NCBI GenBank assembly: GCA_050942995.1
Contig: JBMNOI010000001.1
Coordinates: 776-64,775, forward strand
Direction: 5' to 3'
Length of the DNA: 64,000 nt
DNA from: Anaerolineae bacterium
GTDB lineage: Bacteria > Chloroflexota > Anaerolineae > UBA1429
Part shown: positions 13,247 through 55,459 of the stretch, one piece after another
How the letters are laid out: each line of letters begins with the position of its first letter
Numbering within the stretch: position 1 is the first letter of the stretch
Translations under genes and position numbers: made by a program
The notes under the pieces: model-generated
Databases searched by the model: none
The model's input: the letters and a program-made list of their open reading frames with translations, nothing else
Told to the model about the DNA's origin: nothing

Positions 13247-13606
13247 AAGATGGTATTCGGCCGCTCTACCGCCTCGTCCACCATTCGGATATTCTACGCA
13301 TCGAGGGCATCATCTCGGGCTCCGGCCCCGGCGACGCCGGCTGTCTGGGCCGCATCATCATTTTTGACCAATTGTGTTATAATATCCCCCGGATGAATTG
13401 AGTTTCGAGAGGGCAATCCCCAGCAGCCTATATTTCAATTCAGAAATCGATTTTGGATGTCGGCTCGCAGGCGAAAAGCGCCTCGAAATGACCTCAAAGA
13501 TCGCCCTCTCAGTGCAGTGAATTGTGAAAGGTTGATCAATGTACAGGCAATTGTTAGGAATGGGCTCGCTCGTGGGCGCGCCCGGCTCGGAACGGAGAAG
13601 ATAGCC

Positions 13607-14704
13607 ATGACCCGAGCAATGATCTTTATCGATGGCACATGGTTGTACCTCAGCACCCCCCGTTTGGCCGACGATTACGGCACACCCGAACTACACCTCG
13701 ATTATGGACTCTTGCCCAGAGTTCTGGGCGACCAGATGAAAGAACAGTTGGGCCTTGGCGAGATCGATATTGTACGTACCTGTCTGTTCGCCAGTCACGC
13801 CATTAATTACGATCTCCGTGATGAAGAGATGGTCGAGCGCCATCTGGCTTTCTTTGACATGCTTAAAGAGGATTTTCATTACGAGGTCGAGCTCTATCCC
13901 ATCGACTTTCGCGGGCAACGCTTGCGCCGCAAAGATCGCGACCCCGAAACCGAGTTCGAGCCCAAGGAAAAGTGTGTCGATGTGGCGCTGGCCTCTACCA
14001 TGATGTACTATGCCGCCATCCCATCGGCGTACGACATCGCCATTGTGGTAGCGGGCGATCGAGACTATCTGCCCCTGCTGCAAAATGTCCGCCGCCTGGG
14101 CAAGCGTGTCGCCATCGTCAGCATCCGCGGTTGCTGCACGCCCGATTTCAGCGATCCGGCCAACACCCATCAGGTGCGCGACACCGACATTATCTGGCTC
14201 AACGACATCATCCCGCAGATCGAGCTCAAATGGGAACGCCGTCAGCTCGAGTGCCGTTCGCCCCTGCATGAGGGGAACCGTCTGGTGTGGACGACCTTTC
14301 GCCCCCGCACAGGGCAACCCTTCTACTGCCCCGAATGCCGCAAAAAACGTAACGCCATGCTGCAAGAGAGTTCCGGCGATACATCGTCAGCGTCGATGAC
14401 GGCGTCGATGACGCCGTCCACCACGAATGAACCCAACGGTAACGGCCATCCCGATCGGGACGGTGAAGGAAACGATGACGATTCGTCCTACTATGGCGTC
14501 ATCACCAAGGTATTCAAGGGCAACGGCTACGGATTCATCCGCAGCGAGACCGAGAGAGAGTACTTTTTCCATCTGACCGACCTCAAAAACGCACAGTGGG
14601 AGCAGATCGACACCGGCCTGCGTGTGTCGTTCTCCGTCGAACGAGAACCATCTCTCAACCCCGAACGCCGCGCCGGCGCGGCCAGTAATGTGTGGATCGT
14701 ATGA
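13607..14704 (+). CDS. NYN (LabA-like) nuclease domain - zinc ribbon - cold-shock domain fusion protein
   Basis: Track ORF 13457..14704, start at MTRAMIFIDGTW. NYN pattern CVDVALASTMMYYA...IAIVVAGDRDYLPLLQNVRRLGKRVAIVS. C-x-C...CPEC ribbon, S/T-rich linker, then C-terminal CSD YGVITKVFKGNGYGFIRSE...EYFFHLTDL. Confidence 0.7.
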   Translation: MTRAMIFIDGTWLYLSTPRLADDYGTPELHLDYGLLPRVLGDQMKEQLGLGEIDIVRTCLFASHAINYDLRDEEMVERHLAFFDMLKEDFHYEVELYPIDFRGQRLRRKDRDPETEFEPKEKCVDVALASTMMYYAAIPSAYDIAIVVAGDRDYLPLLQNVRRLGKRVAIVSIRGCCTPDFSDPANTHQVRDTDIIWLNDIIPQIELKWERRQLECRSPLHEGNRLVWTTFRPRTGQPFYCPECRKKRNAMLQESSGDTSSASMTASMTPSTTNEPNGNGHPDRDGEGNDDDSSYYGVITKVFKGNGYGFIRSETEREYFFHLTDLKNAQWEQIDTGLRVSFSVEREPSLNPERRAGAASNVWIV

Positions 14705-15222
14705 GAAAAACAACCCGTCAAAGATCTTCGTCTCCCAGAGTACGGCTGGTGCCCATGAGCGCCGACGAGTTCACCACCTGGTGGCAGGCGGCCATCGACA
14801 GCTATGCGCGAGAGAAGGTGCGCGCCGGCAACTGGGACGCCGCCGATGCCCCGGCTCTGGCCGAGCATTCATATCGTGAACTGCTCCCCCAGGGAACGGC
14901 CACGCCGGGCAACTATGTGTGCTCCATCATCAATGAGGATGGCGACTCGGTCGGCGCGCTCTGGTTCGCCGAGGGGACCGAGGGGCCGGGAAGGCCGGCC
15001 TATCTATACGACCTCGTCGTGTATGAGGCCTTTCGCCGACAGGGATACGCCCTGAGCGCCCTGCAGGTTCTGGAAGAACGCGTCTGCGAGATGGGGCTGG
15101 ATCGGATCATCCTGCACGTGTTCGGTCACAATCGCTCCGCTCAGGCCTTGTACGAGAGAGCCGGCTATATCGTGACCAACGTCGTCATGTGCCGTACGCT
15201 GTCGCCCCTCGAGACGAAATAG
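14701..15222 (+). CDS. GNAT family N-acetyltransferase
   Basis: ATGA start/stop overlap with the NYN gene (translational coupling). YEAFRRQGYALSALQVLEERVCEMGLDRIILHV...ALYERAGY. Confidence 0.7.
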   Translation: MRKTTRQRSSSPRVRLVPMSADEFTTWWQAAIDSYAREKVRAGNWDAADAPALAEHSYRELLPQGTATPGNYVCSIINEDGDSVGALWFAEGTEGPGRPAYLYDLVVYEAFRRQGYALSALQVLEERVCEMGLDRIILHVFGHNRSAQALYERAGYIVTNVVMCRTLSPLETK

Positions 15223-16951: not shown

Positions 16952-17280
16952 CCTTTCGAACGCCAGGAAGAGCCACGCCGGAGATCGCCCGGACGCCGGA
17001 TCGTTCGCCCTATGGGGGCAGAAGGCTGACGAAGGGCGGATGCAGCGCTACGCATTGCAAGAGGGCAGCGCGCTCTATGTCCTGCTGATCTTGAGAGCTG
17101 GCTGCCCATTACATCGGGAAAAATGAGATACAGCCACCATCGGTGGAGGAATAGGAATGAATAAATGACAATTATAATCAATTAGACAAGAAAAACAAAA
17201 AAACGGGCGGGACAAAACGGGGGGTGGCCTTTACACGGCGAGATCTACCGAGTATAATGAGGTTCGAGGGGAGTGAAACT

Positions 17281-18471
17281 ATGCAGAATAATGGTAACGG
17301 GCATGTCCTTGCCACAGGTTCCAAAACGTACCGTCGCTATAAGCTGATTGATCTCTTCGCAGGCGCAGGAGGATTTACGCTCGGATTCACGCCAGAATTC
17401 GGTCACCGCTTTGATATTGTATGGGCAAATGACATTAATCAATTTGCAGCAGACACATATAATGCTAATTTCGGCAATCACTGTGTTGTCGGAGACATCG
17501 TCGATCTCCTTAATGATCCTAAAGTCGTAATCCCGACTGCGGATGTGGTCATTGGCGGTCCTCCTTGTCAGGGCTTTAGCCTTCTCAACAAAAACCGCAA
17601 GGGAGATCCACGAAAGCAGCTATGGCGCCCGTTTTTGACGGTAGTTGAGCGATCAGAGGCCAAGCTATTTGTTATGGAGAATGTTCCTCAACTACTAGGA
17701 TCTAAAGAATATGATGAAATAAAAAAAGTAGCGGAAACCTTGGGTTTCAGGCTTACCGCAGCTAAGCTTTGCGCAGCAGATTACGGAGTCCCGCAATTAC
17801 GATTCCGAGCATTTGTGATCGGTTGTCGGTTTGCCGATCCTTCAGATTTCTTTCCCCCTAAACAGACTCACTATGATCCTGACAAAGAACCAGGACTATT
17901 TGATATAGTAGAAAGAAACAGCACGGGTAGAGTTCATACTTGGCGTACGGTTCGAGACGCGATTGGGGATCTTCCGCCACCTGAAGGCACGGAGATTCGA
18001 GATGAAGACCCTCCTCTGGATCTTCACTTTGGTCGATCTCCAACTGAGTTAAGCATGAAGCGATATCGAGCGATTCCCGAAGAGGGAATGAACCGGTTTG
18101 ATTTACAGCGTTTGGCTCCGGAGTTAACACCCAAGTGCTGGATTCGGAAAAAAACAGGAGGAACCGATCTATTCGGACGGCTATGGCGGGATAAACCCTC
18201 TGTCACGATCAGGACAGAATTCTTCAAGCCCGAAAAGGGACGTTACCTACATCCGGAACAGCACAGACCGATCACGCATCGCGAGGCGGCACGGCTCCAA
18301 TCTTTCCCAGACACCTTCCGGTTTCGGGGTAGTAAGATCGAGATAGCACGCCAGATCGGTAATGCTGTGCCTCCCATGTTGGCAGCACGAGTAGCGGATG
18401 CGGTCGTCGAGATTTTGGCTTTGGCAGAGGAGAATGAACCGATCAGACAGATGGAGATGCAACATCGCTAG
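17281..18471 (+). CDS. DNA (cytosine-5)-methyltransferase (Type II R-M methylase)
   Basis: Motif I DLFAGAGGFTLGF, motif IV GGPPCQGFS, ENV, QLRFRAFVIG, QIGNAVPP. AT-rich codon usage unlike the surrounding genes. Start at MQNNGNG after GAGGGGAG RBS. Confidence 0.9.
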   Translation: MQNNGNGHVLATGSKTYRRYKLIDLFAGAGGFTLGFTPEFGHRFDIVWANDINQFAADTYNANFGNHCVVGDIVDLLNDPKVVIPTADVVIGGPPCQGFSLLNKNRKGDPRKQLWRPFLTVVERSEAKLFVMENVPQLLGSKEYDEIKKVAETLGFRLTAAKLCAADYGVPQLRFRAFVIGCRFADPSDFFPPKQTHYDPDKEPGLFDIVERNSTGRVHTWRTVRDAIGDLPPPEGTEIRDEDPPLDLHFGRSPTELSMKRYRAIPEEGMNRFDLQRLAPELTPKCWIRKKTGGTDLFGRLWRDKPSVTIRTEFFKPEKGRYLHPEQHRPITHREAARLQSFPDTFRFRGSKIEIARQIGNAVPPMLAARVADAVVEILALAEENEPIRQMEMQHR

Positions 18472-18494
18472 GCTAGATATGACCGGATCGTTGA

Positions 18495-18522
18495 CCCCGC
18501 CGGAAACTTGGCGGGGTTTTTT
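18495..18522 (+). terminator. Intrinsic terminator after the methyltransferase
   Basis: CCCCGCC-ggaaactt-GGCGGGG followed by TTTTTT. Confidence 0.7.
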
Positions 18523-18548
18523 GTTACTTTTCTGAAACATGATGTGCA

Positions 18549-18770
18549 ATGATCTATCATGATTTAAAGCATGTTTTGGGACACAACGTGCAAAAGCTGC
18601 GCAAGTCGCTGGATATGACTCAAAAGGAACTTGCCGAACGCACGGGACTAAATCGTTCATATATAGCAGGGATAGAACGTGGAATGCGAAATGTGCGACT
18701 AAGTACCATAGCAGTGCTCGCGGCAGCCATGAATGTTGATCCAGAAGAATTGCTTAAGAAAGATAATTAA
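18549..18770 (+). CDS. XRE-family HTH protein, likely R-M controller (C) protein
   Basis: LGHNVQKLRKSLDMTQKELAERTGLNRSYIAGIERGMRNVRLSTIAVLAAAMNVDPEEL is a canonical HTH_3 domain. Sits between the methylase and the nuclease genes. Confidence 0.65.
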   Translation: MIYHDLKHVLGHNVQKLRKSLDMTQKELAERTGLNRSYIAGIERGMRNVRLSTIAVLAAAMNVDPEELLKKDN

Positions 18771-18781
18771 AGCACATTATT

Positions 18782-19666
18782 ATGGGCCCACAACGAGAAA
18801 AAATGAACATGAATAATATCTTATCCGAGATGCACGGCATCATGGACCGATTAAGAAAAGCCGAAAGTGAAGGCACAACACGGCGAGAACAGGTTCGGTT
18901 GATTGTGCAGCTCCGGCATCTCGTTGACCTCTGTGGAAAAGCGCTCTACCCGGAGTATAAATCCGCTCGTGCAAGGCTACTGGCATATATGCAAGAACAT
19001 GTGGGACAGCCTATTCACTCTACCGAACTCGCGGCTGTTGCCGGCATCAGCGAGTATGCCAGACGAATTAGGGAGTTACGGGTGGAGTTCGGTTATGATA
19101 TATTGACGATGGAGGATGATCCGAATCTCGGCGCGAATGAATATCTGCTAACTAGCATCGAACCCGACCAAGCTCGGGCAAGCCGCTGGGAATTGGCAAA
19201 CACGATCAGAAACCGGAAAGATTTGAATGCCTCTGAGCGAATTCTAGAGTTCCTCAAAGCAAATGTCGGATGCCCCGTCACAAGCGATGAGCTTCAGTAC
19301 GTTGCAAAAATCAAAGAGTTTGGGAGACGCATCCGTGACTTGAGAACAGAAGGGGGCTGGATCATCCACAGTGGCGTCTTAGGACGGCCTGATCTCAGGC
19401 CAACGCAATACGTGCTCGAATCATTGGAGCAAACAATGCCCCATGAACGGAGCATACCAGAGTCAGTTGCCAAAAAAGTATACGAAAGGGATAACTATCA
19501 ATGTGTTGAATGCGGATGGTCTAAAGCGAGTGCCGATCCGACTGATTCTCCCCGTTATCTACAGCTACATCATCGCGTTCCTCATGCAGACAAAGGCCCA
19601 AACACCGTAGATAATCTTGAAGTTCGATGTAATATATGCCATAAACAGGCACACACTACTCAATGA
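18782..19666 (+). CDS. HNH nuclease, probable Type II restriction endonuclease, with tandem N-terminal DNA-binding repeats
   Basis: C-terminal HNH/zinc motif CVECGW...LQLHHRVPHADKGPNTVDNLEVRCNICH. Internal repeats ...ISEYARRIRELRVEFGYDI and ...IKEFGRRIRDLRTEGGWIIHS. AT-rich like the methylase. Confidence 0.6.
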   Translation: MGPQREKMNMNNILSEMHGIMDRLRKAESEGTTRREQVRLIVQLRHLVDLCGKALYPEYKSARARLLAYMQEHVGQPIHSTELAAVAGISEYARRIRELRVEFGYDILTMEDDPNLGANEYLLTSIEPDQARASRWELANTIRNRKDLNASERILEFLKANVGCPVTSDELQYVAKIKEFGRRIRDLRTEGGWIIHSGVLGRPDLRPTQYVLESLEQTMPHERSIPESVAKKVYERDNYQCVECGWSKASADPTDSPRYLQLHHRVPHADKGPNTVDNLEVRCNICHKQAHTTQ

Positions 19667-19727
19667 CCAAGTATCACTTGTGAACAACGTAGATACGGCT
19701 GTAATTGTATTAAGCGCTTATCTATCT

Positions 19728-20336
19728 ATGCAACAAATGCGGTCATTCCCTTGGCGGGAAGAGAACGATCCATTCCACATCCTTATTGCGGAAATGATGC
19801 TTATCCGAACGCGTGCCGACCTAGTAGTTCCGGTTTATTTGCAATTCATCCGACAGTGGCCGCGGCCGGATGATCTGGTATGTGCTGCTGATGAGCAAAT
19901 TGCACAAACGTTAGTACCGTTAGGTCTGCCCCAGCGTATTCCCTTTTTCAAGCAAGCAGCGAAACACATCATCGAGAACCATGCGGGAGTGGTGCCTTCA
20001 AAGCGCAAAGACCTTGAGAAGATTCCCGGCGTGGGTCGATATGTTGCTGAGGCAGTCTTGGCATTTGCATTCAATCAACCCATTGTTCCCGCAGATGTGA
20101 ATGTACTGCGGTGGATATCGCGCATAACGGGGCTCGAGATGATCAGTAGCAGCAAAGGTTCGAAAGAGATACGATTACTGCTACCTAGGCTCGCCCCGTT
20201 GGGCGGACGGCAAGCGTACAAGTTCCTCGATTTTTTGCGTGAAATATGTCGTCCGAGAAAACCTGCATGTGATGAGTGTTGGATTCAGATGTTGTGTCAT
20301 TACGGTCGAAAAGCATTACCAGATTCGACCGCATAA
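19728..20336 (+). CDS. Endonuclease III family HhH-GPD DNA glycosylase with [4Fe-4S] loop (Mig-like mismatch glycosylase candidate)
   Basis: FHILIAEMMLIRTRADLVVPVYLQF. HhH motif LEKIPGVGRYVAEAVLAFAF...VDVNVLRWISRI. Cluster loop C-x6-C-x2-C-x5-C (CRPRKPACDECWIQMLC). Start placed at MQQMRSFPWREE. Confidence 0.75.
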   Translation: MQQMRSFPWREENDPFHILIAEMMLIRTRADLVVPVYLQFIRQWPRPDDLVCAADEQIAQTLVPLGLPQRIPFFKQAAKHIIENHAGVVPSKRKDLEKIPGVGRYVAEAVLAFAFNQPIVPADVNVLRWISRITGLEMISSSKGSKEIRLLLPRLAPLGGRQAYKFLDFLREICRPRKPACDECWIQMLCHYGRKALPDSTA

Positions 20337-20370: not shown

Positions 20371-20389
20371 AGCGACAATCGAACAGTGA

Positions 20390-20611
20390 AAGATGTAGAT
20401 CGGGAAGAGTAGCTGTCAAAGCGGGATTCAGAGAGCCGGGGTAAGGTGAGAGCCCGGTATCAGCGCAGACAACGAATGGGCCCGGGAGTCGCGCGGCCGA
20501 ACGCGCAGAGCGCTACTAGGCCGCGACGGAGTCGCCACCGTTATCAGGGCAGAGGGTATCGGTTGACCTCGTTGTGACAGAGGATCAACCCGTACCTGCA
20601 AGAGTGAGGCT
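20390..20611 (+). promoter_or_regulatory. Structured 5' leader of trpB2, T-box-like (tentative)
   Basis: ~250-nt untranslated leader. AGAGAG box, loop with UGG. Degenerate T-box-like GGCTGGCCCGCA overlaps the 5' side of the terminator. Confidence 0.35.
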
Positions 20612-20645
20612 GGCCCGCACATTAAAATCCGCCATCACGGCGGGA
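20612..20645 (+). terminator. Intrinsic terminator/attenuator in the trpB2 leader
   Basis: AAAATCCGCC-atcac-GGCGGGATTTTTTATT immediately upstream of the trpB2 RBS. Confidence 0.7.
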
Positions 20646-20821
20646 TTTTTTATTATATATGTCGGGTCGGGCTAAGAAGGGTGGCACCACGGGAGCAAAG
20701 CTCTCGTCCCTTGGGGACGAGGGCTTTTTTTATTGGCCGACACATCCCGGCGGGCCGAGAGCCATCGAATCGTAATGTTCCGGGTGTTCGGGGTGATCCG
20801 CGCAAACGAGGAGGGAAAAAG

Positions 20822-22180
20822 ATGGAGACGCGTTTCGATCTGTCACAGAGTGATATGCCCAGGCGTTGGTACAATGCTCAGGCCGACCTGGCCGAGCCGC
20901 TGCCGCCCCCGTTGCATCCGGGGACGCTGCAGCCCATCAGCCTCGCCGACCTGGAGCCGCTCTTTCCTAAGGAGATCATCCGGCAGGAAATGAGCCAGGA
21001 GCGGTATATCGACATCCCCGAAGAGGTGCAGGAGGTGCTGCGTCTATGGCGACCGACGCCGCTGCTGCGGGCGGTGCGCCTGGAAAAAGCCCTGGGCACC
21101 CCGGCCAAAATCTTTTACAAGTACGAGGGCACCAGCCCCACCGGGTCGCACAAGCCGAATACAGCGGTGGCGCAGGCGTTCTATAACAAGATCGCCGGTG
21201 TCCGCAAACTCACCACCGAGACGGGTGCCGGGCAGTGGGGGACGGCCCTGGCCATGGCCTCGAACTTTTTCGGGCTCGAGTGCAAGGTCTTTATGGTCAA
21301 GGTGAGCTATCAGCAAAAGCCCTATCGCCGCTCGATCATGCAAATGTTCGGCGCCAGCGTGACGCCCAGCCCCAGCACCGAGACCGAGGCGGGCCGCTCG
21401 ATCCTGGCCAAAGATCCGGATTCGACGGGTTCGCTGGGCATCGCCATCAGTGAGGCTTGCGAGATTGCCCTGCAGAACGATGACACCAAGTACTCGCTGG
21501 GCAGCGTGCTGAACCACGTGCTGATGCACCAGACCATCATCGGTGAAGAGACGATCTTGCAGATGGACAAGGCGGGGTTCGAGCCGGACGTGGTGATCGG
21601 CTGCGTGGGAGGCGGCTCCAATTTCGGCGGCATCGCCCTGCCCTACCTGCGACGCAACCTGCAGGACGGCACCAAAGTGCGCCTGGTGGGCGTCGAGCCG
21701 ATGGCCTGCCCGACGATGACCAAGGGCGTCTATGCCTTTGACTATGGCGATACGGCCAAAATGGCGCCGGTGGTCAAGATGAATACTCTGGGACACGACT
21801 TTGTGCCGGCGGGCATCCATGCGGGAGGGCTGCGTTACCACGGGGTGGCGCCGCTGCTGGCCGCGCTGCACCGTCAGGGGCACATCGAGGCGGTGGCCTA
21901 TCATCAGACGCCGGTGTTTGACGCGGCGGCTCTGTTCACCCGCACAGAGGGGATCATCCCCGCGCCCGAGTCGGCCCATGCGATTCGCGCGGCCATCGAC
22001 GAGGCCCTGGATGCCAGGGAAAAAGGCGAGGAGCGAGTGATCGTCTTTTGCCTGAGTGGCCATGGGTATATAGACCTGGGGGCGTACGATCTGTATATGG
22101 ACGGCAAGCTGGAGGATTACGCCTACCCGGAGGAAAAGATCCGGCAATCCCTGGCGAATCTGCCCCAGGTTTCGCTGTAA
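20822..22180 (+). CDS. trpB: Tryptophan synthase beta chain, TrpB2-type
   Basis: Track ORF 20681..22180. Start METRFD after GAGGAGGGAAAAAG. PLP-lysine region [13 protein letters not shown]. ~450 aa, typical of the TrpB2 subfamily. Confidence 0.8.
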
Positions 22181-39380: not shown

Positions 39381-39455
39381 GCCGACGTAGCTCAACGGCA
39401 GAGCAGCGGTTTTGTAAACCGCCGGTTGTGGGTTCAAGTCCCTCCGTCGGCTCCA
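39381..39455 (+). tRNA. tRNA-Thr (anticodon TGT)
   Basis: Cloverleaf read by eye. Acceptor GCCGACG/CGTCGGC. Anticodon stem GCGGT/ACCGC, loop TTTGTAA. T-arm GGGTTCAAGTCCC. CCA encoded. Confidence 0.8.
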
Positions 39456-39507
39456 CGAGTTTGTGGGCGCAGAGGGGTTTATCAAAAATCGAGCGTTCGG
39501 TAAATGT

Positions 39508-39589
39508 GGGCAGGTACCCAAGCGGCCAAAGGGGACTGACTGTAAATCAGTTGGCAACGCCTTCGGAGGTTCGAATCCTTCCCTGCCCA
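39508..39589 (+). tRNA. tRNA-Tyr (anticodon GTA), class II with long variable arm
   Basis: Acceptor GGGCAGG/CCTGCCC. Anticodon stem ACTGA/TCAGT, loop CTGTAAA. Long variable arm. CCA not encoded. Confidence 0.8.
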
Positions 39590-39611
39590 CCTTGATTTTT
39601 TACCCAGTAGT

Positions 39612-39684
39612 GCCCACGTAGCTCAGACGGTAGAGCACGTTCTTGGTAAGGACGTGGTCATGGGTTCAAGTCCCATCGTGGGCT
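39612..39684 (+). tRNA. tRNA-Thr (anticodon GGT)
   Basis: Acceptor GCCCACG/CGTGGGC. Anticodon loop TTGGTAA. T-arm ATGGGTTCAAGTCCCAT. CCA not encoded. Confidence 0.8.
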
Positions 39685-41207: not shown

Positions 41208-41280
41208 CAGGCGAGTAGCTCAATTGGCAGAGCGACGGTCTCCAAAACCGTAGGCTGCGGGTTCGATTCCTGCCTCGCCT
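41208..41280 (+). tRNA. tRNA-Trp (anticodon CCA)
   Basis: Acceptor AGGCGAG/CTCGCCT. Anticodon stem ACGGT/ACCGT, loop CTCCAAA. T-loop TTCGATT. Sits between rpmG and secE. Confidence 0.85.
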
Positions 41281-41424
41281 GCCTCGTGTGACTGTTAGGC
41301 ACCGCGCCAGGCTCGCGGCCCGTGAATTCGGCTGACCGCGAAGCGTTGATTGATCGAGTACCTGGCCCCCGGTGTCTACAATTTTGTTGGAAAAAGTGCG
41401 GGCCCTGCCCCGAGGAGAGCGCCC

Positions 41425-43655: not shown

Positions 43656-43881
43656 ACAACCGAACAACGCTCGGCCGTAGACAGCAGGTGCGTATTGACG
43701 CTTAATCATCAGCCTGCCGAGGCAGAGATCACGGGTTGCCCCTAAATAGCCGGAGAATCGAGCGAGGCGACCCGGCTTGAGGTAGATATTCCTAATTCAG
43801 GAACATGCCCCAATGAGATCTTTGCGTCGGTATGGCGCAAAGATCTTTTTTTTCATCTTACCGGAAGGAGGTGAGACGCTC
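43656..43881 (+). promoter_or_regulatory. rplJ-rplL leader region (L10 autoregulatory leader candidate)
   Basis: ~225-nt untranslated region between rplA and rplJ, the position of the L10 leader in other bacteria. Structure not verified. Confidence 0.35.
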
Positions 43882-55386: not shown

Positions 55387-55459
55387 TGGGCCCACCCGGA
55401 TTCGAACCAGGGACCAACCGGTTATGAGCCGGCCGCTCTAACCGCTGAGCTATGGGCCC
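55387..55459 (-). tRNA. tRNA-Met (anticodon CAT; elongator vs tRNA-Ile2 not distinguishable)
   Basis: Minus strand. Acceptor GGGCCCA/TGGGCCC. Anticodon loop CTCATAA. T-loop TTCGAAT. CCA not encoded. Confidence 0.75.

What the first reader, a model, noticed from the sequence alone, without database searches (positions are those of the whole stretch)
13607..14704. NYN nuclease fused to a cold-shock domain via a zinc ribbon and low-complexity linker
The domain architecture (NYN / C4 ribbon / S-T-rich linker ASMTASMTPSTTNEPNGNG... / CSD) suggests an RNA-targeting nuclease guided by a single-strand nucleic-acid-binding OB fold. A 12-bp tandem duplication (GCGTCGATGACG x2, encoding ASMTASMT) lies inside the linker, indicating recent slippage.
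Basis: seen in the sequence. Interest (0 to 1): 0.55.

Follow-up and report, generated by a model that had tools for sequence, protein, structure and literature searches.

The report
NYN nuclease–zinc finger–cold-shock domain protein
This gene encodes a predicted RNA-cutting enzyme tethered by a floppy linker to a cold-shock-type RNA-binding domain; it is a typical member of a strongly conserved, untested protein family found patchily in about 20 differently labelled bacterial lineages, so it is real but only moderately new.

The parts
13607..14704 (+). Complete NYN-Zn-linker-CSD gene (365 aa plus stop). It is identical to GenBank MGI5914835.1, 'MAG: NYN domain-containing protein [Anaerolineae bacterium]'.
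   Evidence: ORF list and sequence; start fixed by homologue alignment; exact-sequence look-up.
13607..14221 (+). LabA-type NYN / PIN-like nuclease domain (about residues 1-205). D9, D72, E121, D125, D151, D153 and D192 are invariant. It has an unusual invariant DGTWLY motif after strand 1, and a conserved basic/acidic insert at residues 100-122 (RGxRLRRxDRDP...FEPKEK).
14222..14392 (+). CHCC zinc module followed by a long helix (about residues 206-262). Ligand candidates are C216, H221, C241 and C244. The knuckle follows strand 212-215, and the CxxC sits at the N-terminus of helix 242-263, which is a treble-clef-like topology.
   Evidence: Invariant in 87 of 87 sequences; secondary structure of the model; sub-threshold Pfam zf_Tbcl_2 (E 0.062) and NCBIfam CxxC-x17-CxxC (E 0.23) hits.
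14393..14488 (+). Disordered S/T/N/G/D-rich linker (about residues 263-294). Its length varies across the family: the C244-to-G297 spacing is 31-72 residues (median 40; 52 here).
   Evidence: pLDDT below 50 for residues 263-291; 10% mean identity and the length range.
14390..14418 (+). 12-bp tandem duplication GCGTCGATGACG x2 (plus a partial third copy). It is codon-aligned and encodes ASMT-ASMT (residues 262-269). It is polymorphic in the population.
   Evidence: TRF score 51; exact 12-bp gap in L001, L002 and L003; 361-aa allele P0001.
14489..14701 (+). C-terminal cold-shock domain (residues 295-365). RNP1-like motif GYGFI has F310 invariant. RNP2-like motif YFFHL has F321 and H322 invariant.
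13373..13383 (+). Candidate extended -10 promoter TGTGTTATAAT. It would give a 5' leader of roughly 220 nt. The block is conserved in the locus of the 76%-identical orthologue.
   Evidence: Alignment of upstream regions; sequence. Promoter function is inferred, and no -35 match is present.

Best explanation
The gene encodes a stand-alone cytoplasmic, divalent-metal-dependent endoribonuclease. The N-terminal LabA-type NYN (PIN-like) domain would cut single-stranded RNA, using a cluster of invariant Asp/Glu residues to hold Mg2+ or Mn2+. A CHCC zinc module packs against the NYN domain and, together with a conserved Arg-rich insert, probably extends the RNA-binding surface. The C-terminal cold-shock domain, held on a disordered tether of 30-70 residues, would bind and keep unfolded a stretch of single-stranded RNA and so raise its local concentration at the active site. 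That is substrate capture with little sequence specificity, as the CSD and S1 domains do for RNase R and RNase II.

Shown: domain identities, folds, residue conservation, distribution and the lack of operon partners. Inferred: catalysis, RNA rather than DNA as the substrate, and the capture role of the CSD.

The ASMT duplication is a neutral replication-slippage polymorphism in the tether and has no functional meaning.
For: - NYN and CSD both score above the Pfam gathering thresholds in the query and in 87 of 87 aligned homologues.
- The MARF1 NYN domain is an experimentally shown Mg/Mn-stimulated ssRNA endonuclease with four active-site Asp residues (PMC6294520, read).
- In this family D9, D72, E121, D125, D151, D153 and D192 are invariant in 87 sequences. 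They sit at strand ends or helix starts of the model. The D125-D151 spacing of 26 residues equals the MARF1 D426-D452 spacing (my inference).
- The CSD nucleic-acid-binding aromatic residues F310, F321 and H322 are invariant, and Y319 and F320 are conserved as aromatics.
- The linker is disordered, unconserved and variable in length, as expected for a tether.
- Identity between lineages has a median of 52%, and the nearest neighbour falls in the same lineage in 39 of 51 cases. This indicates strong purifying selection on a cellular function.
- No conserved neighbour exists among 80 loci, and there are no phage or plasmid copies.
Against: - No member has been assayed, and I found no paper on the family.
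- Bacterial LabA-like NYN proteins (group NYN.COG1432) have no demonstrated nuclease activity (PMC5499597).
- I recall the usual NYN strand-1 motif as D-x-x-N; here it is the invariant D-G-T-W. The Pfam NYN model aligns only residues 110-174 of this protein, so the active site is divergent.
- CSDs bind ssDNA as well as ssRNA.
- The active-site geometry and the docking of the CSD could not be inspected, because no coordinates or PAE are available.
Confidence: 0.55

Rival explanations
1. It is a DNA-directed nuclease. The CSD binds single-stranded DNA, and the PIN-like domain acts as a flap or 5' nuclease in repair or replication.
Confidence: 0.12
2. It is a non-catalytic RNA-binding regulator. 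The NYN domain would serve as a binding or scaffold module, as is suspected for cyanobacterial LabA, and the protein would act as an RNA chaperone or translational regulator through its CSD.
For: LabA-like NYN proteins have regulatory phenotypes and no shown nuclease activity (PMC5499597). The strand-1 motif is atypical (DGTW). The Pfam NYN model matches only part of the domain.
Against: Seven acidic residues are invariant across 87 sequences from many lineages. That pattern is expected for a metal-binding active site and is hard to explain for a scaffold. In PIN-like proteins known to be inactive, such as SMG5, these residues are lost (PMC6294520).
Confidence: 0.2
3. It is an anti-phage defence or toxin effector, related to CSD effectors of retrons or to NYN components of candidate defence systems.
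For: There are weak domain-level hits to the NCBIfam retron Se72 effector (29.3 bits against a cutoff of 82) and to PADLOC CSD_V (35 bits), HEC-09 (28 bits) and NYN (18.6 bits).
Against: All hits are partial and far below family cutoffs. None of the 15 largest neighbour clusters among 80 loci is a reverse transcriptase or an antitoxin-like partner, and no neighbour recurs beyond 9 loci. Contexts are ordinary chromosomal genes such as topoisomerase I and enolase. There is no phage or plasmid copy. Median identity between lineages of 52% with mostly lineage-coherent clustering is unlike fast-evolving defence genes.
Confidence: 0.05

Closest known systems
LabA-like NYN proteins (Pfam PF01936 / COG1432 / 'LK-nuclease'; structure 2qip, VPA0982), including the bacterial NYN + OST-HTH(LOTUS) architecture
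   Different: There is no OST-HTH domain here. Instead there is a CHCC zinc module, a disordered tether and a single CSD. Strand 1 carries DGTWLY rather than what I recall as the usual D-x-x-N motif. There is a conserved charged insert of about 23 residues (100-122). The PIN-superfamily catalogue does not mention this architecture.
MARF1 / Limkain-b1 NYN endoribonuclease
   Different: MARF1 is eukaryotic, 1742 aa long, and uses RRM and LOTUS domains and P-body partners. Sequence identity to the fold match 5yaa is only 11%.
RNase R / RNase II (CSD1-CSD2-RNB-S1)
   Same: A ribonuclease that uses cold-shock-type OB folds to capture single-stranded RNA. This is an analogy of mechanism, from established knowledge.
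   Different: The catalytic domain is unrelated (an RNB exonuclease rather than a PIN-like endonuclease). The CSDs are N-terminal and rigidly packed, not tethered at the C-terminus.
PRORP, Regnase-1/ZC3H12A and KHNYN/N4BP1 (NYN/PIN-like nucleases with zinc or RNA-binding modules)
   Same: A PIN-like/NYN metallonuclease next to a zinc-binding element and an RNA-recognition module (from established knowledge).
   Different: The partner domains differ (PPR, CCCH or KH). These proteins are eukaryotic or organellar. No sequence-level relationship beyond the superfamily was detected here.
Free bacterial cold-shock proteins (CspA/CspB) and the retron Se72 CSD effector
   Same: The C-terminal 70 residues are a bona fide CSD with RNP1 and RNP2 motifs.
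   Different: All CSP family models score far below their cutoffs (for example CspA 19.9 against 130, and the retron Se72 effector 29.3 against 82). Here the CSD is a domain of a larger enzyme, not a 70-aa chaperone.

Membership tests
NYN domain (Pfam PF01936; LabA-like / COG1432 group) | Sequence match to the family model above the curated cutoff | tested here: met
   35.7 bits against a cutoff of 24.2, although only residues 110-174 align. 87 of 87 homologues match, and some relatives match profile positions 1-136 of 145.
NYN domain (Pfam PF01936; LabA-like / COG1432 group) | PIN-like three-layer alpha/beta fold with a parallel sheet | tested here: met
NYN domain (Pfam PF01936; LabA-like / COG1432 group) | Cluster of about four conserved acidic residues forming the metal-binding active site | tested here: inconclusive
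   D9, D72, E121, D125, D151, D153 and D192 are invariant in 87 sequences and lie at strand ends or helix starts. Residue-by-residue superposition on the MARF1 active site (D358, D426, D427, D452) could not be done. The equivalence rests on spacing only.
NYN domain (Pfam PF01936; LabA-like / COG1432 group) | Ribonuclease activity | not testable with these tools
   This needs a biochemical assay. No bacterial LabA-like member has been assayed, according to PMC5499597.
Cold-shock domain (Pfam PF00313) | Sequence match above the curated cutoff | tested here: met
   33.1 bits against a cutoff of 27. The family profile hits CspLA/CspB at E about 4e-8. 87 of 87 homologues match.
Cold-shock domain (Pfam PF00313) | Five-stranded OB barrel with RNP1 (GFGFI-like) and RNP2 (VFVHF-like) aromatic motifs | tested here: met
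CspA-family free cold-shock proteins / retron Se72 effector (NCBIfam equivalogs) | Whole-protein score above the equivalog cutoff, and a protein of about 70 aa | tested here: not met
   CspA 19.9 against 130, CspE 15.7 against 120, and retron Se72 effector 29.3 against 82. The protein is 365 aa.
   Only three Cys residues (216, 241, 244) plus the invariant H221 are present. The second ligand pair sits at the N-terminus of helix 242-263, as in treble clefs. The sub-threshold hit is to a treble-clef model (zf_Tbcl_2, E 0.062).
Known anti-phage defence systems (PADLOC) | Full-length match to a system component, plus the system's partner genes nearby | tested here: not met
   Only partial domain-level hits of 35 bits or less. 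No conserved partner genes in 80 loci.

The most novel reading that the evidence does not exclude
This NYN-Zn-CSD protein is a previously unrecognised housekeeping endoribonuclease of RNA turnover or processing. It would be shared by many mostly uncultivated bacterial lineages (Chloroflexota, Binatia, Armatimonadota, Planctomycetota, Nitrospirota, Omnitrophota, Patescibacteria and others). Its tethered cold-shock domain would feed unstructured RNA to the nuclease, possibly with a role at low temperature or in stress. If so, it would be the first functional assignment for any bacterial LabA-type NYN protein.
Probability: 0.3. Interest if true: 0.55.

Novelty: new variant of a known kind. Interest (0 to 1): 0.33.

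Why it matters
Bacterial LabA-type NYN proteins number in the thousands, yet none has a demonstrated biochemical activity. This sub-family is unusually well conserved, with about 52% median identity between lineages, and it carries an unambiguous single-strand nucleic-acid-binding domain. That makes it a good entry point for testing whether bacterial NYN domains are RNases. It may also reveal an RNA-decay factor in lineages whose RNA metabolism is known only from genomes. The particular gene in this window adds nothing beyond membership, apart from a clear example of a slippage polymorphism in a disordered linker.

Tried and rejected
- **Longer ORF from 13457.** Rejected. The extra 50 residues are absent from all homologues and from the GenBank record.
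- **C4 zinc ribbon.** Rejected in favour of a CHCC site with treble-clef-like topology.
- **Operon or defence-island context.** ORFs within 4 kb of the gene were clustered across about 80 loci. The largest neighbour cluster covers only 9 loci and is limited to particular lineages. PADLOC gave only domain-level hits.
- **Mobile-element carriage.** tblastn against phages and plasmids found no match.
- **Regulatory 5' leader like that of cspA.** Rfam found nothing (best E 0.99), and the predicted fold is not unusual (z = -1.33). Only an extended -10 box is conserved with the 76% orthologue.
- **Residue-level mapping onto solved NYN structures by sequence.** phmmer of the NYN domain against the PDB gave no hit even at E = 10, so active-site equivalence rests on the fold match and on spacing.
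- **AlphaFold-database fold search.** That library was unavailable.
- **Literature.** Five searches combining NYN or LabA terms with cold-shock or CSD terms found no study of this architecture. The only mention is a one-line note of OB-fold fusions in the 2010 OST-HTH paper.

Full report
**1. What is in the sequence**

Window 13607-14704 (+) is an open reading frame of 365 codons plus a stop. GGAG lies 8-13 nt upstream of the ATG. A longer version starting at 13457 is possible on paper. However, every homologue begins with the conserved MxKxMxFIDGTW motif that corresponds to 13607. The exact 365-aa sequence is deposited as GenBank MGI5914835.1, 'MAG: NYN domain-containing protein [Anaerolineae bacterium]'. 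The window therefore comes from an Anaerolineae (Chloroflexota) metagenome-assembled genome.

**2. Domains**

- Pfam finds NYN (PF01936, 35.7 bits against a cutoff of 24.2, residues 110-174) and CSD (PF00313, 33.1 bits against a cutoff of 27, residues 298-347).
- NCBIfam gives only sub-threshold cold-shock-protein hits. These include the retron Se72 effector at 29.3 bits against a cutoff of 82.
- An AlphaFold2 model built on 87 homologues has mean pLDDT 88.9.
- A profile of the family hits CspLA, CspB and CspA at E about 4e-8.
- Between the two domains lie two short strands (212-215 and 226-229), a long helix (242-263) and a segment with pLDDT below 50 (263-291).

**3. The metal site is CHCC, not C4**

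The query has seven cysteines. Only C216, C241 and C244 lie in the module between the NYN domain and the linker. These three and H221 are invariant in 87 of 87 sequences, giving C-x4-H-x19-C-x2-C. The C-x4-H knuckle follows a strand, and the CxxC opens the long helix. That is the topology of a treble clef rather than of a zinc ribbon. This is my inference from the secondary structure. It is consistent with the sub-threshold zf_Tbcl_2 hit (E 0.062).

**4. The duplication**

Tandem Repeats Finder reports GCGTCGATGACG, period 12, 2.4 copies, at 14390-14418. Nine other arrays of similar score occur in the 64-kb window, so the repeat on its own is unremarkable.

What makes it real is a comparison with three metagenome contigs: L001 from a JGI sample, and L002 and L003 from two SRA runs. 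They are identical across the 131 aligned bases around the repeat, except that they lack exactly one 12-bp unit. Their protein is 361 aa and has a single ASMT. The duplicated allele is itself seen on four contigs. The duplication is therefore a segregating, codon-aligned indel, most simply explained by replication slippage.

It sits in the tether, which is the least constrained part of the protein. Mean identity to homologues there is 10%, and the C244-G297 spacing ranges from 31 to 72 residues. I therefore take it to be neutral.

**5. How common is the architecture?**

- The word-indexed search returned 758 proteins at E of 1e-3 or better. The best 120 are full-length, about 50% identical, and nearly all pre-annotated as NYN+CSD.
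- The exhaustive search of 50%-identity representatives gave 99 clusters at E of 1e-30 or better and 343 at E of 1e-10 or better.
- Every one of the 87 aligned members matches both Pfam models.
- A scan of one genome per species found 307 genomes that encode a relative. The scan used only two peptide patterns, so this is a lower bound. The best 80 are all MAGs, and I sorted their record titles into about 20 lineage labels. These are mostly phyla but some are classes, and ten records could not be assigned. They include Chloroflexota, Armatimonadota, Binatia, Planctomycetota, Lentisphaeria, Nitrospirota, Nitrospinota, Acidobacteriota, Patescibacteria, Omnitrophota, Gemmatimonadota, Zixibacteria, Methylomirabilota and Firmicutes.
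- Identity between lineages has a median of 52%. The nearest neighbour is in the same lineage for 39 of 51 labelled sequences. This suggests mainly vertical descent under strong constraint, with some transfer or mis-binning.
- More distant relatives of the NYN core carry a SAP domain instead of a CSD.

**6. Context**

In this window the gene lies between an endonuclease/exonuclease/phosphatase-family gene and a GNAT acetyltransferase, followed by an aldo-keto reductase. That order is kept in the 99% and 76% relatives. It is not kept in Thermomicrobiales or Zixibacteria.

I clustered all ORFs within 4 kb of the gene across about 80 loci. The most recurrent neighbour is a TPR protein present in only 9 loci. 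Other clusters are lineage-specific synteny blocks such as topoisomerase I, TrmFO-like genes and enolase. There are no phage or plasmid homologues and only domain-level PADLOC hits. The protein therefore appears to work alone, in ordinary chromosomal settings.

**7. Mechanism**

What is shown:
- A LabA-type NYN fold with seven invariant acidic residues: D9, D72, E121, D125, D151, D153 and D192.
- An invariant CHCC site.
- A disordered tether.
- A CSD whose nucleic-acid-binding aromatic residues are invariant (F310, F321, H322) or conservatively aromatic (Y319, F320).

What is known from relatives: the MARF1 NYN domain cleaves single-stranded RNA endonucleolytically. Mg2+ or Mn2+ stimulates it, and it depends on a four-Asp cluster (D358, D426, D427, D452) (PMC6294520).

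What I infer:
- The family is an active metal-dependent ssRNA endonuclease.
- D125 and D151 correspond to MARF1 D426/427 and D452, because the 26-residue spacing is the same.
- The CSD captures and holds open single-stranded RNA near the active site.
- The zinc module and the conserved Arg-rich insert (residues 100-122) add RNA contacts.

I give this reading about 0.55. The rivals are:
- A non-catalytic regulator (0.2). This is plausible because no bacterial LabA-like protein has shown activity (PMC5499597). In addition, strand 1 carries an atypical DGTW motif where I recall the usual NYN motif as D-x-x-N.
- A DNA nuclease (0.12).
- A defence or toxin effector (0.05).

**8. Comparison with what is known**

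The protein belongs to the NYN/LabA-like (COG1432, 'LK-nuclease') group by sequence and fold. Its CSD is a true PF00313 domain. It is not a member of the CspA-type free cold-shock proteins, of the retron Se72 effector family or of any PADLOC system, because their thresholds were tested and not met.

The general design of a NYN/PIN-like nuclease plus an RNA-binding module is well known:
- NYN + OST-HTH in bacteria.
- MARF1, Regnase-1, KHNYN and PRORP in eukaryotes.

Anantharaman et al. (2010) noted in one line that some bacterial DUF88 + OST-HTH proteins also carry an S1/cold-shock OB fold (PMC2848206). The specific NYN-CHCC-tether-CSD architecture is not discussed in that paper. It is also absent from the 2017 PIN-superfamily catalogue and from every paper my searches reached. 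Annotation pipelines already label the proteins 'NYN domain-containing protein' or 'cold shock CspA family protein / LabA/DUF88 family protein'.

**9. Verdict**

The finding is real and mostly read correctly. The gene is an ordinary member of a widespread, highly conserved, experimentally untouched family, and a new architectural variant of a known kind of predicted RNase. The 'C4 ribbon' should be corrected to a CHCC site with probable treble-clef topology. The duplication is a confirmed but functionally trivial polymorphism. Interest is modest at 0.33. The family, rather than this gene, is a reasonable target for the first biochemical test of bacterial LabA-type NYN domains.

Noticed in passing
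window 20387-20714 (+): T-box leader (Rfam RF00230, 101.2 bits against a gathering score of 93, full-length match). It ends just inside the listed start (20681) of a PALP-family (pyridoxal-phosphate enzyme) ORF at 20681-22180.
   Followed up: no
window 17224-20336 (+): A cluster of three genes: a Dcm-type C5 cytosine methylase (17224-18471), a winged-helix + HNH endonuclease (18782-19666; PADLOC type II REase hit at E 8e-13), and an overlapping HhH-GPD glycosylase-family gene (19617-20336). This is probably a type II restriction-modification module with a repair gene. In the near-identical contig L001 the methylase is split into two ORFs and is followed by an HTH_3 gene instead.
   Followed up: partly
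window 13373-13383 (+): Extended -10 box TGTGTTATAAT, 224 nt upstream of the NYN-CSD start codon. It is the best-conserved block between this upstream region and that of the 76%-identical orthologue (L087), and it implies a long 5' leader. The leader has no Rfam match (best E 0.99) and no unusual predicted stability (z = -1.33).
   Followed up: partly
window 14692-15222 (+); likely true start ATG at 14755: The GNAT acetyltransferase downstream of the NYN-CSD gene is listed with a GTG start that overlaps the NYN-CSD stop by 13 nt. In the near-identical contigs the gene is called 51 nt after the stop (155 aa), which corresponds to the ATG at 14755 here. No terminator-like site lies between the two genes, so they may be co-transcribed in this lineage only.
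   Followed up: partly
window 39381-39684 (+), 41209-41281 (+), 55387-55459 (-), 43657-43860 (+): Three tRNA genes lie within 300 bp, with two further tRNAs elsewhere. There is also a ribosomal protein L10 leader (RF00557, 54.2 bits), which points to a ribosomal-protein/rpoB-type region in the window.
   Followed up: no
proteins P0241, P0252, P0253, P0262 (distant relatives, 546-674 aa): More distant relatives of the NYN core (35-41% identity over about 200 residues) carry a SAP domain instead of the Zn-CSD tail. The same nuclease core is therefore paired with different nucleic-acid-binding modules.
   Followed up: partly
loci L018, L027 (genome contigs): Two MAGs titled 'uncultured Enterobacteriaceae bacterium' carry NYN-CSD genes whose nearest relatives (86-93% identity) are MAGs labelled Proteobacteria (L042) and Binatia (L032). 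L082, titled 'Bacteroidales', is 95% identical to a Gemmatales sequence. These record labels look unreliable, or the contigs are mis-binned.
   Followed up: no
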